Shown here piece after piece: positions 36,001 through 48,000 of a DNA stretch of 64,000 bases. Where the stretch lies: the NCBI RefSeq assembly GCF_963676685.1, contig NC_092345.1, forward strand, positions 50,716,001 through 50,780,000, written 5' to 3'. Position 1 is the first letter of the stretch, and each line of letters opens with the position of its first letter. The position numbers were made by a program. The stretch comes from Mytilus edulis (Eukaryota).

Positions 36001-39000
36001 AATAATGGCAACACTAGTTACCGCTGTTCAAACTCAAGTTTATCAAAATCGATTAAAAATATCAAGAAATGAGGCAGGAATTTAATTTCGGTAGTATCTA
36101 ATTTTAAGTTCCCTTAGATAGATGAAATGTAAGCACTACTTGTAATGTAGGATAGTGGGTGTCAGAACATCATCAATATATCTGAAATTCAAATGAAAGA
36201 ACTGTGCAAGATGCTTTTTTGTCTTTGAGAAGGTACTGTATGAATACATATGAGCACAACAAAAAAATGCTCTGCAGTGGTGCACAATTAGTTCTAATTT
36301 GAAATCCGCTTGTCTGCTTTAATCATTCCATCAAACAGTCGTGCATTTTGATGACTTCATTTCCCGTCTTATTGTTATTGAAATCGGTTAGAACCTTCAC
36401 AACAACAAAAAATCAGGAATTAATACAAGGAATTTGTATCTACATTTCCTATTTCTGAAGAAAAAGAGCTCCGTTTAATGAAAAAAAAAGTCGATCTTTC
36501 AATTGAACATGCGGAGAAGTAGTTTTAAGCATCGAAAAGTAAAAGGTTTTGCTATTCATACAAAATTATAAAGAATACTTGGCACGTGTAAGCGCATTAA
36601 ATATCTTTCAAATACACGCTTTTAGATGGAAATTTAAAACGGATTGTCCTTTATAACACATCAAAATAAAAAATTCACACACATCTAACGAATGGAAAAC
36701 ATTGTGTTATATGTTGCATCATAGCATATGATTGGTTTTTATTGGTTTTGATTTACATCTTTTTATTGCAAATCTTTGTTTGTATTTTCAGATCAGTTTG
36801 ATGGCATTTTTGAACTTTTTCCAACCACAATGAAAAAGCTCTACGTTGTTGATGGGGGATTGACATTCAATTCGCCATACCCGTTGTTACTAAGGCCCCA
36901 GAGACAAGTGGATCTTATCTTGTCGTTTGATTTTAGTGCAAGACCTACTGATGATACACCACCATTTAAGGTAATTGTTAAAACACATTAACCAATTTGC
37001 TTTGTTTAAGCCTAGGTAGCATAAAAGGAAAGAATCATATAAAGAATTGTAAGCCTAGGTAGCATAAAAGGAAAGTATCACATAAAGAATGTTAAGCCTA
37101 GGTAGCATAAAAGGAAAGAATCATATCAAGAATTTTAAGAATTTATCTGTTTTTCATCAAATGATATGGAGTTCTTCTAGAAGACATTTACTTGTCAAAA
37201 CGAAGTATCAAGCACTATATAAGCAGTTCATAAAACAAAAGAATGGCAAAAAATGTATAAATGCTACAAACGCAATTTGTAATTTGTAGGAAATCAAGAT
37301 TGCAGAACACTGGGCTCACAAGAACAATGTACCGTTTCCACCAATAGACGTCAATATAATGGAAAAGGAAGGAATAAAAGAGTGTTATGTGTTTGAAGAT
37401 CGGAAAGATCCTAAATGTCCTACCATCTTACATTTTGTTTTGTCAAATATAAATTTCAGGAATGAGACACAACCAGGTAATGTTTATGTTGGTATTTTTT
37501 TGCAATTGATAGATTGTTTGTTAGTGGTTAACACGTCATAAAAGAGAGGCGAAATATCTAGAAGTACATTCAAACTCACAAGTTGAAAATAAACTGACAA
37601 CGCATTGGTTGAAAGAAAGAAAAACAGACATAAAACATAGAAAAATTTAAGAGCAATGACAATTGGAAAAAACGACTTTTGTGTAGTTCGGTCAAAGTGT
37701 ATACTTATGATGTACCGTTGATGATTTCAAAGATATTTTTAAAAGCTGTATGAAACATAGTACTGAAGTTATTAAAATACTACAATACTAAAAAGTTCAA
37801 GAATTAATATATGGTGTGGATATACTGTACCATAATTGTATTACTGTCCTGTTAAATGCTCTTGATGTTTTCATTTTATCAAAACGGTGATTTCTTTTCA
37901 ATATTTCATAAAATGTGTATTTCAATTTTAGATGTACCAAGACAAACAGATGAAGAAAAAGAGTTTGGTGATTTCCAACTATTTGACGACCCAAAACGTC
38001 CATATTCGACTTTCAACTTTAATTATTCTCATCTGGCGTTTGAAAGGATAACTCAATTAACTGAATATAACACTCTGCGCTTTAAAAATTTAATAATAGA
38101 CAAGGTTCGAGAATGCGTGAGAAAATATCAGGATTCATCCATTCGAAGACCAATTAAACTACAAGATATTAAGAAATTAAGACTTGGAGCAAAGGATAAG
38201 GAGGATAGATTAAAACAGTTTGTCGAATCTTTTGATTCCCCTGATTCATGAATGATAAACTGAGTACAGTTTTGGAACATTGATTGAAAGCATAAGAAGA
38301 TAGTTATGTGCTTATGTTGTTTTTTACGCAGTTTTTGAACATTGATTGCAAGCATAAGAAGATAGTTAGGTGCTTATGTCGGGTTTTTTCAAACACGAAA
38401 TGTTATGATTGTGGGTAAGATAAAGTTGTATTTTCTCACAACATACTACATGCAGAACCTATACCGTGGAATTGAAAATGAACAGTATGATTAAGATAAG
38501 AACTAAAAAAACATATGTTATGAACAGTATGCTTAAGATAAGAACTGAAGAACATATGTTATATTCAGGTGTACCTTGAAATGTTCTACAGACGTTAAGC
38601 AAACGATTGAACATGATTTGAACAGTTTGAAATACGTTAGAAATAGTTGTATTTATTTTTTACATATCTACATTTTGTTTTTACATGTCTGTATTATGTT
38701 TTCGTTACCCATGTCATATTTTTACATGTCTACATTTTGGTTCTCTACTCATATCATTGTTGATGTTTAGGTAGCAATACACAGTTAGAAGTTTAGTTTC
38801 GCATTATTGCCATTTTGAATTTTTTAAATATGAAAGTTTTTGCACAATAAAATTGATTTTTAGATAATTGAAGAATAATATAGCCTTCTTAGTGGGTTTA
38901 TATGAACATTTAGATTGTTTTTAGCATGTTTTATAGGCCATTTATCTGTTTGACAGTCAGTATTTTCCTATCCATACCGTCCATAGGTCCATAAATTATT

Positions 39001-45000: not shown

Positions 45001-48000
45001 TTGAAAGGATAACTCAATTAACTGAATATAACACTCTGCGCTTTAAAAATCTAATAATGGACAAGGTTCGAGAATGCGTGAGAAAATATCAGGATTCATC
45101 CATTCGAAGACCAATTAAACTACAAGATATTAAGAAATTAAGATTAGGGGCAAAGGATAAGGAGGATAGATTAAAACAGTTTGTCGAGTTTTTTGATACC
45201 CCTGATCCATGATTGATAAACTGAGTGCAAGTTTTTGAACATTGATTGCAAACTTAAGAAGATAGTTGGGTGCTTATGTGTGACAATATGATGGCTTAAA
45301 ATATATATATAGATATATATTATATATATTTATATTTATATTTATGATTATATATTCTCAAAAATGTTTATTAAATTGAATAAAATAAATACAGGAGAAT
45401 ATCTATTAAGAAAAACATGACCTTGTAAAAGGTTGTTCAATTGATCACTGGGTTGCATATATATAACATGTTTACATGCAGACCAGGTAGTGACATGTAG
45501 CAATTAGTTAAAACACGGGAAATATGTGTATTCTTTGACCATTAATCTCCAGGTTGGTCAAAACATGTCAATTAAAGTCAACTTAATAGATATTCATCCC
45601 TGTATCTTTTGATTTAAGACTATAATTGTCAAATTAATAGAAACCTTGACACTGTTTATATTCTGTATATATACTGATGTATTTTACTGTATAGAGGAGA
45701 CCGTCCGTTATGGACACTGGTCCAGACGGGCTTTAATAAACTGCTATTCAAAATAACCATGTGTTGTGTTACATATGTTGGATTTTTGCGCAGTTTTTGA
45801 ACATTGATTGCAAGCATAAGAAGATAGTTAGGTGCTTATGTTGGTTTTTTCAAACACGAAATGTTACGATTGTGGGTAAGAGAAAAGTTGTATTTTCTTA
45901 CAACATAATACATGCAGTACCTATACCGTGGAACTGAAAATGAACAGTGTGCTTAAAATAAGAACTGAAGATCATATGCTATGTTCAGGCGTACCTTTAA
46001 ATGTTCTACAGACGTTACGTAAACGATTGGACATGGTTATAAATTGAACAGTTTGAAATACATTAGAAATAGTTGTAATTATTTTTTACATATCTTCATT
46101 TTGTTTTCGTTACCTATGTTATATTTTTACATGTCTGGTTTTTTTTTGTTTTCGTTACCCATGTCATATTTTTACATGTCTACATTTTGGTTCTCTACCC
46201 ATATCATTGTTGATGTTTAGTCAACCATTTATTAGAAACCGACCTTGTGTAATATCATTGTTCGTACACCAAAATGAAAATAACGTGACGTCAATGGCTC
46301 AATTTCCATTGTTTAGAACGTTTTACACCAATCACAACGTTTTGGTGTACGCTTTTGAAAATATTACCCAGGATGCATTAGATTCTGAAACGGGTGTCAT
46401 TGATAGAAATGTTTATGTTAAACTAATTTGTTCTTCATTATTTATTCTATAAGTGAATTCATTTTATCTGTTTTTCTTATATTTGTTTAATAATTATCTC
46501 TTGTTTTTTAAATAAATTTATCTAAAATAAATCTTGAAGTTGATCGTGAAAGAGCCCTTTCAAATGTTGTCAGCAACATTTGACATGACATGAAAATGCC
46601 AATTTGTGACTTTTTACAGAGATTAACAAAATGCTTTTCTATTCGTAGACTGTCCCTTTCACTCGATCTATTCTCTTACTGTAACAGTATTCTGTCCACA
46701 CCTTGCAGAATGCTTTAAAAATATAAAATAGATACCGAAATGAAATGTCTACTGATAGAGAGGCAAAAAATACGAGAGTAATATTCAAACTCCTAAGTCG
46801 AAAGCAAACTGACAACGCCATAGCAAAAATAACTAGAGGCTCTAAAGAGCCTGTGTCGCTCACCTTGGTCTATGCGCATATCATAAACAAAGGACACAGA
46901 TGGATTCATGACAAAATTGTGTTTTGGTGATGGTGATGTTTTTGTAGATCTTACCTTACTGAACATTCTTGCGGCTTACAATTACCTCTATCAAATGAAC
47001 CTATGAATCTATCCCAGAAGTTAAAATCGTTTCTAAAAATTTACAAAATTTACAAAATTTATGAAAATTGTTAAAAATTTATTATAAAGGGCAATAACTC
47101 CTTAAGAGGTCAATTGTCCATTTTGATTATGTTGACTTGTTTGTAATTTTTTACTTTGCTGTGCATTAATGCTGTCTACAGTTTTTCTCTATCTATAATA
47201 AAAGAGGGACGAAAGATACCAAAGGGACAGTCAAACTCATAAATCTAAAACAAACTGACAACGCCATGGCTAAAAATGAAAAAGACAAACAGAAAAACAG
47301 AAATACAATAGTACACATGACACAACATAGAAAACTAAAGAATAAACAACACGAACCCCACCAATAACTAGGGGTGATCTCAGGTGCTCCGGAAGGGTAA
47401 GCAGATCCTGCTCCACATGTGGCACCCGTCGTGTTGCTTATGTGATTACAAATCCGGGAAATAGTCTAATTCGGTAGGTCACATTCATGAAAGGGAAGGG
47501 GATTGTAGTTACGACGTAAGGAACATATCCGATATCATTTGTGAAACGGTTATTCCATAACGGTCAACCAACTCGTGATGGCGTCCGTAAAATTTACGAA
47601 GGGATGATTTCAACTTCACCATTTGGAACTCTTGGTTTAATAGCTTCCTTGTGAGCAGTAACCCTCTATCAAGAAAATCATGATAGGAAATGCAAGCACG
47701 GGAATATCGTATCAATTGGGAGATATATACCCGTATGCAGGTGCTGCTGGAATGTTGCTATTTAGAAATGGAAAGTTCACAATTGGAAAGCTGAAATCAT
47801 CTCTTTTGTCGTGAAGTTTTGTTTTCAACCGACCCTCATTGTCAATTTCTAGATGTAAGTCAAGATATGAAGCCGACTTAACTGTATCTGTAGTATCCTT
47901 AATCTCCAATTCGATGGGATAGATGCGTTCCACATAGTCACCAAATTTTGAATTGTTTAGTGAAAGAACGTCATCTATATAGCGGAAAGTAGAGTTAAAG

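What the first reader, a model, noticed from the sequence alone, without database searches (positions are those of the whole stretch)
36772..46635. Duplicated cPLA2 3' module with intact splice sites: possible alternative C-terminus or NMD switch
Seen: the copy starts 20 nt before the catalytic-Asp exon and ends shortly past the AATAAA. All five splice sites are retained. The first exon copy is identical over 179 nt. The second has TAA 61 nt before its donor. The third is open with five amino-acid changes. Divergence rises toward the 3' UTR. Inference: splicing 37476 to 44893 would give a variant C-terminus and UTR, while 35751 to 43854 would give an NMD target. The identity gradient suggests gene conversion.
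Basis: partly seen in the sequence, partly recalled or inferred. Interest (0 to 1): 0.65.

Follow-up and report, generated by a model that had tools for sequence, protein, structure and literature searches.

The report
Partial cPLA2 gene duplicate in a mussel
The last three exons and 3' UTR of a mussel cytosolic phospholipase A2 gene are copied again 7 kb downstream, beyond a neighbouring gene, and the copy looks like an ordinary decaying gene fragment rather than a working alternative gene end.

Summary
The window is Mytilus DNA (about 31% GC, no N; best protein hits are Mytilus), so I do not take it for human. A C2 + PLA2_B (cPLA2-type) gene lies on the + strand from about 24.8 to 39.8 kb. 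Its last three exons, two introns and 3' UTR (36772-39803) recur at 43834-46638.

- Exon A' is identical (0 of 179 nt differ).
- Exon B' has two substitutions that create TAA, 61 nt before its donor.
- Exon C' is open, with 11 nt and 5 amino-acid changes.
- All GT/AG sites and the AATAAA are kept.
- Divergence rises from 0% to about 3-4.5% (introns, exon C) to about 5-13% (UTR). The leading 266-nt identical tract is longer than chance allows, which fits gene conversion.

Best reading: a real, DNA-level partial duplicate, that is, an unprocessed pseudogene fragment. It lies downstream of the parent's poly(A) signals, a satellite array and a conserved convergent ankyrin gene. Use as an alternative C-terminus or NMD switch fits the exon phases, but no evidence supports it and the context argues against it. 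An assembly artefact is less likely: there is no gap, and the junction flanks share no sequence. It cannot be excluded without reads. This is an ordinary class of feature, so interest is low.

The parts
24833..35751 (+). Upstream exons of the parent cPLA2-type gene: C2-domain exons, the PLA2_B exons with the GLSGS serine motif, and the acidic linker exon ending at 35751. These are not duplicated.
   Evidence: tblastn of the M. trossulus cPLA2-like protein P0001 gives 10 separate HSPs here. Pfam finds C2 (1.2e-9) and PLA2_B on single-exon ORFs. The small exon encoding TSEVDIEMWA is seen only in ORF 28778-29122. The exon for residues 1-8 was not found.
36772..39803 (+). Copy 1 (parental 3' module, 3032 nt): 20 nt of intron, exon A 36792-36970, intron, exon B 37290-37476, intron, exon C 37932-38248 plus TGA 38249-38251, and the 3' UTR with AATAAA at 39705.
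   Evidence: Pfam PLA2_B profile positions 347-408 (exon A) and 410-470 (exon B). PDB 1cjy_A residues 530-588 and 655-738.
38771..39437 (.). A 667-nt insertion found only in the copy 1 3' UTR. It has roughly 19-nt terminal inverted repeats and a duplicated TTAG. Copy 2 keeps the empty site (MITE-like). It holds one AATAAA (38846).
   Evidence: No other copy in the window.
39804..43833 (.). Spacer E (4030 nt), not duplicated: 61-nt satellite x14 (39836-40695), the ankyrin gene, 180-nt x3 repeat (41930-42466), and a TE fragment (42490-42726).
   Evidence: No similarity to the sequence after copy 2 except a 71% TE match.
41456..41806 (-). Intronless 117-aa ankyrin-repeat gene, convergent with cPLA2 and lying between the two copies.
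   Evidence: Pfam Ank_2 1.3e-10. 21 of 22 candidates hit; the best is M. trossulus LOC134705920 at 94% identity, on a contig of the same length (103,707,636 bp) as the one with the cPLA2 orthologue.
43834..46638 (+). Copy 2 (2805 nt): 20 nt of intron, exon A' 43854-44032, exon B' 44353-44539 with TAA at 44476-44478, exon C' 44893-45209 plus TGA 45210-45212, and UTR copy with AATAAA at 46511 and 46526.
45280..45773 (.). A 494-nt insertion found only in the copy 2 UTR, between two 62-nt repeat units. Further copy-2-only pieces are at about 46245-46395 and 46562-46590. Copy-1-only pieces are at 37827-37919 (93 nt just ahead of the exon C acceptor) and 39528-39638.
36772..37037 (+). A 266-nt tract with no difference between the copies (20 nt intron + exon A + 67 nt intron). 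Candidate gene-conversion tract.
   Evidence: permutation tests.

Best explanation
A real, DNA-level, partial (3'-terminal) duplication of a Mytilus cPLA2-type gene. About 3 kb was copied with its introns: the last 20 nt of an intron, the last three exons, two introns and the whole 3' UTR to about 100 nt past the poly(A) signal. The copy now lies 4 kb further downstream, on the far side of a satellite array and a convergent ankyrin gene. Copy 2 has no promoter, no start codon, no C2 domain and no catalytic-serine exon. It is an unprocessed pseudogene fragment that is drifting: it has a nonsense codon in exon B', three derived replacements in C', and has lost or gained several blocks of 30-500 nt. 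Its 5' end (exon A' and flanks) has probably been re-homogenised by gene conversion from the parent. That would explain why identity is perfect there and falls toward the UTR.

Shown: the anatomy, the disabling changes, the gradient, the intervening gene.

Inferred: that the copy is not used, that conversion made the gradient, and how the copy arose. For origin I suggest a two-breakpoint replicative template switch whose distal breakpoint lies 33 nt from the satellite array. Equivalently, the 4-kb spacer could have been inserted with a long flanking duplication.
For: - Introns are retained and collinear, so this is not a retrocopy.
- tblastn with P0001 gives only 3 HSPs in copy 2 (residues 529-757) and none for residues 1-528 downstream of 39.8 kb.
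- TAA in exon B' lies inside PLA2_B profile positions 410-470. A product ending there would lack the part that aligns to 1cjy_A 655-738.
- Polarised with P0001-P0003, C' has 3 derived residues (H, F, P) and C has 2 (I, S).
- Exon C/C' has Sd = 5 and Nd = 6, pN/pS = 0.31. This is compatible with one constrained and one free lineage (P = 0.21-0.31) and not clearly different from neutrality (P = 0.056).
- A MITE-like insert with a duplicated target site in copy 1 and the empty site in copy 2, plus at least five other indels, show separate histories.
- No N anywhere in the window. The sequence before each junction shares nothing: A-end against E-end gives only a 27-nt chance-level match, E = 0.011. 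An overlap-driven mis-join therefore has nothing to work with.
- The spacer holds a gene that is annotated in M. trossulus, M. edulis and M. galloprovincialis.
- Partial duplicates make up 21-76% of young duplicates in C. elegans and Drosophila data sets (PMC3449122, passages read).
Against: - No reads, read depth or second assembly could be consulted, so the reality of the duplication in the animal is not shown.
- Divergence in the 5' part (2.7%) is not far above the mean heterozygosity reported for M. galloprovincialis (1.73 +/- 0.24%; PMC7653742, passages read). That species also has many large indel polymorphisms. The two copies could therefore in principle be alleles.
- C' is still open over 105 codons and pN/pS is below 1. 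This is also what a used exon would show.
- All splice dinucleotides and the poly(A) hexamer survive.
- No transcript data were available, so non-use is inferred from context only.
- The origin mechanism is not established: no microhomology or target-site signature was recognised at 43833|43834 or 46638|46639.
Confidence: 0.62

Rival explanations
1. Assembly artefact. The two copies are the two haplotypes of one heterozygous locus (a 'heterotype false duplication') laid one after the other, and the animal has one copy per chromosome.
For: - Mussel genomes are very heterozygous (1.73% on average) and 36.78% of one reference assembly was hemizygous (PMC7653742, passages read).
- The copy differences are a few percent of SNPs plus TE-sized indels, which is also how mussel haplotypes differ.
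- False duplications of parts of genes next to the gene itself are documented in other assemblies (PMC9516828, passages read).
Against: - One of the four hallmarks listed in PMC9516828 is a gap between the copies. It is testable here and is not met, since the window has no N.
- The junction E|D' joins sequences with no shared repeat, so an overlap or graph error has no substrate.
- The spacer is 4 kb of unique DNA with a conserved gene.
- The sequence after copy 2 is not homologous to the sequence after copy 1.
- UTR divergence of 5-13% is well above the average heterozygosity.
- Copy 2 has a nonsense codon.
- The other three hallmarks (read depth, discordant pairs, 1-copy k-mers) could not be tested.
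Confidence: 0.13
2. One reading: copy 2 is a working alternative 3' cassette of the same transcription unit. Read-through past the first poly(A) site and splicing 37476>44893 gives an isoform with a 5-residue-variant C-terminus and another UTR. Inclusion of A'/B' gives a premature stop and decay (unproductive splicing).
For: - The phases fit.
- Donors are identical, acceptors keep AG and a pyrimidine tract, and AATAAA is kept.
- C' is open with pN/pS = 0.31.
- Exon A' is kept identical.
Against: - Three poly(A) hexamers in the parental UTR and ten in the spacer must be ignored. A satellite array and an antisense-oriented conserved gene must be transcribed through.
- The branch-point zones of A' and C' are replaced.
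- The openness of C' is not significant: 11 substitutions, P = 0.056 against neutrality.
- No C'-type protein was found. There were 3 hits among longer proteins and 6 among similar-length ones, none with the C' signature. The M. trossulus protein has Y, S, S where C' has H, F, P.
- Five conservative-looking changes give no obvious new function.
Confidence: 0.1
3. The identity gradient reflects only selection and chance, not gene conversion. Exons A and B are simply the most constrained parts, and the repeat-rich UTR mutates or misaligns more.
For: - Exons A and B are 100% identical in protein to M. trossulus, while exon C has 3 differences.
- The UTR contains 42-62-nt internal repeats, so some UTR blocks may pair non-equivalent units.
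- The non-coding-only run test is only P = 0.035.
Against: - The identical tract includes 87 non-coding nt.
- Exons A and B show 0 synonymous differences over about 74 synonymous sites, against pS = 0.077 in exon C.
- Poisson P = 0.002 for 0 differences in exon A at the exon C rate.
- A pseudogene copy is not expected to keep constraint.
Confidence: 0.3

Closest known systems
Unprocessed (duplicated) pseudogenes and partial gene duplicates, as surveyed for C. elegans and Drosophila (PMC3449122)
   Same: The copy was made at the DNA level with introns. Only part of the gene was copied. It lies near the parent in the same orientation, has a premature stop and is young (a few percent divergence).
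   Different: The copy is not directly tandem. A 4-kb spacer with another gene lies between the copies. The copied part includes the complete terminal exon, UTR and poly(A) signal, so it keeps the formal ability to act as a 3' end.
Alternative last exons, and mutually exclusive exons born by tandem exon duplication (recalled class, no paper read here)
   Same: Duplicated exons of the same length and phase with intact splice sites lie downstream of the originals.
   Different: Here a three-exon block with its own poly(A) site is copied beyond the gene's end and beyond another gene. One of the copied exons has a stop. No transcript evidence exists.
Heterotype false duplications in assemblies (PMC9516828)
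   Same: Part of a gene is repeated next to itself at a few percent divergence in a heterozygous species.
   Different: There is no gap between the copies, the junction flanks are unique, and unique gene-bearing spacer lies between them. Read-based hallmarks are untested.
Group IVA cytosolic phospholipase A2 (PDB 1cjy)
   Same: The parent gene has a C2 domain and a PLA2_B domain, the GLSGS serine motif and the Asp that aligns to residue 549. Exons A and C align to residues 530-588 and 655-738.
   Different: It is a mollusc orthologue or paralogue. Which vertebrate subgroup it matches was not analysed. Copy 2 holds only the last ~230 codons.

Membership tests
cPLA2-type (group IV) phospholipase A2: parent gene | N-terminal C2 domain | tested here: met
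   Pfam C2, E = 1.2e-9, on the ORF 25648-26007.
cPLA2-type (group IV) phospholipase A2: parent gene | PLA2_B (lysophospholipase) catalytic domain | tested here: met
   PLA2_B hits on 5 parental single-exon ORFs: 4 above the curated cut-off and one (31984-32289) just below at 20.8 bits against 23. 13 tblastn HSPs to the 757-aa M. trossulus protein.
cPLA2-type (group IV) phospholipase A2: parent gene | Ser-Asp catalytic dyad (GXSGS serine; Asp equivalent to 549 of 1cjy) | tested here: met
   GLSGS is read in ORF 30932-31117. The Asp of VVDGG aligns to residue 549 of 1cjy_A. The roles of these residues are recalled, not tested.
Unprocessed partial-duplicate pseudogene: copy 2 | Introns retained and collinear with the parent | tested here: met
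   Both introns align at 95.5-96.9% identity.
Unprocessed partial-duplicate pseudogene: copy 2 | Lacks part of the parent gene (5' exons, start codon, promoter) | tested here: met
   tblastn finds only residues 529-757 in copy 2. Homology starts 20 nt before exon A'.
Unprocessed partial-duplicate pseudogene: copy 2 | Disabling mutation | tested here: met
   TAA at 44476-44478 in exon B'.
Unprocessed partial-duplicate pseudogene: copy 2 | Not expressed or not used | not testable with these tools
   No transcript data. The only indirect evidence is that no C'-type protein appears.
Alternative last exon / alternative 3' cassette | Transcripts that join upstream exons to the downstream copy | not testable with these tools
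   No RNA data.
Alternative last exon / alternative 3' cassette | Lies within the same transcription unit, with no intervening gene or strong terminator | tested here: not met
   A convergent conserved ankyrin gene and 13 poly(A) hexamers lie between exon C's stop codon and copy 2.
Regulated unproductive splicing (poison exon / NMD switch) | Stop-containing exon conserved across species, with regulated inclusion | not testable with these tools
   No eukaryote genome collection or RNA data were available. The stop is a derived two-substitution change relative to M. trossulus.
Heterotype false duplication (PMC9516828) | Gap between the duplicated pair on one scaffold | tested here: not met
   No N in the 64-kb window.
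Heterotype false duplication (PMC9516828) | Half read depth, discordant pairs, single-copy k-mers | not testable with these tools
   No reads available.
Ectopic gene conversion between paralogues | Identical tract longer than expected from the overall divergence, extending into non-coding sequence | tested here: met
   266-nt run: P = 0.00015 (leading) and 0.011 (anywhere). Non-coding only, 87 nt: P = 0.035.
Ectopic gene conversion between paralogues | Shared derived bases in the tract relative to an outgroup | not testable with these tools
   No outgroup DNA.

The most novel reading that the evidence does not exclude
Copy 2 is a live alternative 3' cassette of the mussel cPLA2 gene. It may be polymorphic among individuals, as with mussel presence/absence variation. 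Read-through transcripts would splice 37476>44893 to make an enzyme with a variant C-terminal tail and a different 3' UTR. Inclusion of A'/B' would send the message to decay. Gene conversion from the parent would keep the cassette splice-competent.
Probability: 0.07. Interest if true: 0.6.

Novelty: new member of a known kind. Interest (0 to 1): 0.2.

Why it matters
Mostly as a caution for annotation. A gene predictor could wrongly add exons A'-C' to the cPLA2 model, or call a second 'cPLA2-like' gene, which would inflate gene counts in mussels. It is also a clean small example of a young partial duplicate with a probable conversion tract, dated by private TE insertions, in a genome known for structural polymorphism. 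If the cassette were shown to be used, it would be a caught-in-the-act origin of an alternative gene end. Nothing here shows that.

Tried and rejected
- Global MAFFT alignment of the two copies. It was good for the 5' 1.5 kb but forced non-homologous UTR inserts together, so UTR figures were taken from block-wise alignments instead.
- Listing the 17 members of the P0001 cluster to see which C-terminus each carries.
- Search for short proteins with the C' signature. There were 6 hits among 6 candidates, with best identity 83% and none C'-type.
- Rfam scan of the whole window: 0 matches.
- Inverted-repeat search over 39700-47800 for TE termini bracketing the spacer or copy 2: 10 weak pairs, none at the junctions.
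- Helitron-like ends at the copy borders. I considered this on reading. The start is 'A|TC', but the end has no CTRR-type terminus, and both copies share the start simply because they are homologous. Rejected.
- Simple tandem duplication of a 7062-nt unit (copy + spacer). Rejected because the sequence after copy 2 has no homology to the spacer apart from a 71% TE match.
- Retrocopy. Rejected because the introns are present.
- Literature. Searches for cPLA2 + Mytilus + pseudogene, and for phospholipase A2 + bivalve + partial duplication, each returned 0 papers. The 16 papers with 'cytosolic phospholipase A2' and 'Mytilus' (10 listed, titles and abstract starts only) are transcriptome or unrelated studies by title.
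- Not used: genome contigs (bacteria and archaea only, so irrelevant here), structure prediction and complex prediction.
The Data Notes of PMC7653742 on heterozygosity were therefore not seen.

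
Full report
**Source and rules.** The window has 64,000 bases, no N and about 31% G+C. Its best protein matches are Mytilus proteins. I therefore do not take it for human. Every exon was translated and searched on its own, and the joined step was left out.

**The gene.** Stop-to-stop ORFs on the + strand, scanned one by one against Pfam (21 peptides in all), give the following.
- A C2 domain at 25648-26007 (E = 1.2e-9).
- PLA2_B matches on the ORFs at 30932, 31984 (just below the cut-off), 33273, 36752 (exon A, profile 347-408) and 37290 (exon B, profile 410-470).

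A word-based search with exon C alone found 3 proteins among 113 candidates. The best was the 757-aa 'cytosolic phospholipase A2-like [Mytilus trossulus]' (P0001, 97% identity). tblastn of P0001 against the window gives 13 separate HSPs between 24833 and 38248 and 3 more in copy 2. Exon A aligns to residues 530-588 of PDB 1cjy_A, placing the Asp of VVDGG at residue 549. Exon C aligns to 655-738 of 749. That residue 549 is the catalytic Asp is recalled, not shown by a call. The parent is therefore an intact-looking cPLA2-type gene. Its first 8 codons were not located.

**The duplication.** The repeat finder and self-BLAST pair 36772-38770 with 43834-46220, and 39639-39755 with 46445-46561. Reading the ends places the limits at 36772/43834 and about 39803/46638. 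The exon coordinates are:

| Exon | Copy 1 | Copy 2 |
|---|---|---|
| A | 36792-36970 | 43854-44032 |
| B | 37290-37476 | 44353-44539 |
| C (coding) | 37932-38248, TGA 38249-38251 | 44893-45209, TGA 45210-45212 |

The differences between the copies are as follows.
- A/A': 0 of 179 nt differ.
- B/B': 2 of 187 nt differ, turning CCT AAA into ACT TAA at 44473/44476. The stop lies 61 nt before the donor.
- C/C': 11 nt and 5 residues differ.
- Donors are identical. Acceptors keep AG and 11-20 nt of upstream tract.
- The sequence further upstream of the A' and C' acceptors is not homologous to the parent. For C', 93 nt present in copy 1 (37827-37919) are missing.
- AATAAA is at 39705 in copy 1 and at 46511 and 46526 in copy 2.

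**The gradient.** Block-wise mismatch rates are:

| Block | Mismatch rate |
|---|---|
| First 266 nt | 0% |
| Intron A-B | 3.1% |
| Exon B | 1.1% |
| Intron B-C | 4.5% |
| Exon C | about 3.5% |
| Six UTR blocks | 10.8, 7.7, 6.8, 13.5, 5.1 and 12.5% |

The 5' part has 38 mismatches in 1394 columns, against 62 in 763 for the UTR blocks (Fisher P = 4e-8). Shuffling the mismatch positions gives P = 0.00015 for a leading identical run of 266 nt or more, and 0.011 for such a run anywhere. Using only non-coding columns, the run is 87 nt and P = 0.035. Exons A and B have no synonymous difference over about 74 synonymous sites, while exon C has pS = 0.077. Protein-level constraint therefore does not explain the pattern. 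Gene conversion over the 5' end is the simplest reading. One caution applies: the UTR holds internal 42-62-nt repeats, so some UTR blocks may overstate divergence.

**Separate histories.**
- Copy 1 alone carries a 667-nt insert (38771-39437) with terminal inverted repeats of about 19 nt and a duplicated TTAG. Copy 2 has the intact empty site.
- Copy 2 alone carries 494 nt (45280-45773), about 150 nt (46245-46395) and 29 nt (46562-46590).
- Copy 1 alone also carries 93 nt (37827-37919) and 111 nt (39528-39638).
- Polarised with P0001 and two other mussel proteins, C' has three derived residues (H, F, P) and C has two (I, S). No residue unites C and C' against M. trossulus. The split may therefore be about as old as the split from that reference. 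Protein data alone cannot settle this.
- pN/pS for C/C' is 0.31 (Sd 5, Nd 6). That is not significantly below neutrality (P = 0.056) and fits one constrained plus one free lineage (P = 0.21-0.31).

**What lies between the copies.** The 4030-nt spacer (39804-43833) contains the following.
- A 61-nt satellite in 14 copies, starting 33 nt after the end of copy 1.
- An intronless 117-aa ankyrin-repeat ORF on the minus strand (41456-41806; Pfam Ank_2, 1.3e-10).
- Three 180-nt repeats directly upstream of that ORF.
- A TE fragment.

The ankyrin ORF hits 21 of 22 candidates. The best is M. trossulus LOC134705920 (94% identity), on a contig of the same length (103,707,636 bp) as the one that carries P0001. 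There are further annotated relatives in M. edulis and M. galloprovincialis. Shared contig length suggests, but does not prove, conserved neighbourhood. Between the stop codon of exon C and copy 2 there are 13 AATAAA/ATTAAA hexamers (3 in the UTR, 10 in the spacer).

**Artefact or real?** Passages of PMC9516828 list four hallmarks of false duplications: half read depth, gaps between the pair, discordant pairs and single-copy k-mers. Only the gap can be tested here, and it is not met. The junction flanks share no sequence: A-end against E-end gives one 27-nt match at E = 0.011, and the spacer against the sequence after copy 2 gives only a 71% TE match. Neither a repeat-driven mis-join nor a simple 7-kb tandem unit explains the layout. 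On the other side, mussel haplotypes differ by 1.73% on average and by many large indels (PMC7653742, passages; its supplementary Data Notes were closed). Allelic origin therefore cannot be excluded without reads. I put it at about 0.13.

**Function.** However, copy 2 has no promoter or 5' exons of its own. It sits beyond the parent's poly(A) signals and a convergent gene, has a stop in B', and has changed branch-point zones. No protein with the C' residues was found. There were 3 hits among 113 longer candidates and 6 of 6 similar-length candidates, with best identity to C' of 83% among the latter. The 17 members of the P0001 cluster could not be listed, so annotated isoforms remain unchecked. 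I therefore read copy 2 as an unprocessed partial-duplicate pseudogene (confidence about 0.62), with regular use as an alternative end at about 0.1.

**Origin.** This is inference only. One possibility is a replicative template switch with two breakpoints, the distal one next to the satellite array. The other is insertion of the spacer with a long flanking duplication. No signature at the junctions decides between them.

**Novelty.** Partial duplicates are a common class: 21-76% of young duplicates in the worm and fly data sets reviewed in PMC3449122 (passages). Searches for this particular case in print found nothing (0 papers each; 16 papers, none about gene structure by title or abstract start). 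It is a new member of a known kind, and interest is low.

Noticed in passing
window 41456-41806 (-): Intronless 117-aa ankyrin-repeat gene between the two copies. It belongs to a multi-copy small-ankyrin family annotated in M. trossulus, M. edulis, M. galloprovincialis and M. californianus (21 hits at 49-94% identity).
   Followed up: yes
window 39836-40695: Satellite array of a 61-nt unit, about 14 copies at roughly 70% match, starting 33 nt after the end of copy 1. It may mark the distal breakpoint of the duplication.
   Followed up: partly
window 41930-42466: Three nearly identical (98%) 180-nt tandem repeats immediately upstream of the ankyrin ORF's start codon. Each carries AATAAA hexamers on the + strand.
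   Followed up: no
window 38771-39437: MITE-like 667-nt insertion with roughly 19-nt terminal inverted repeats and a TTAG target duplication in the parental 3' UTR. It brings in an extra AATAAA (38846). No other copy in the window.
   Followed up: partly
window 29412-29911 and 47199-47698 (inverted); also 11550-12012, 42490-42726: A 500-nt repeat family. Two copies are 97.6% identical in opposite orientation, one in a cPLA2 intron and one just after copy 2. Older copies are at 71-82% identity. Probably a young non-autonomous transposon.
   Followed up: partly
window 16411-17996 (+), 18291-18944: Non-LTR-type reverse-transcriptase ORFs (Pfam RVT_1, 5e-22), followed by a partial second copy of the 3' part of the element (17037-17363 with 18300-18617 at 91%; 17914-18247 with 18611-18944 at 96%). 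This is another local partial duplication.
   Followed up: no
window 47712-48743 (-) and 53120-53581 (+): Two more reverse-transcriptase-like ORFs (RVT_1, about 1e-6, just below the curated cut-off), flanking the region downstream of copy 2.
   Followed up: no
window 919-1698: Tandem array with a 30-nt period that stays open in several frames (repeated ...GKYKFDYVA... peptides). Either a minisatellite or a repetitive coding exon.
   Followed up: no
window 37005-37139 and 44067-44201: A 43-nt x3 tandem repeat inside intron A-B, present in both copies. It therefore predates the duplication.
   Followed up: no
window 57697-59288 (+): Three open stretches rich in acidic residues (for example 57697-57906 and 58980-59288) with no Pfam match. 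Possibly exons of an unrelated downstream gene.
   Followed up: no
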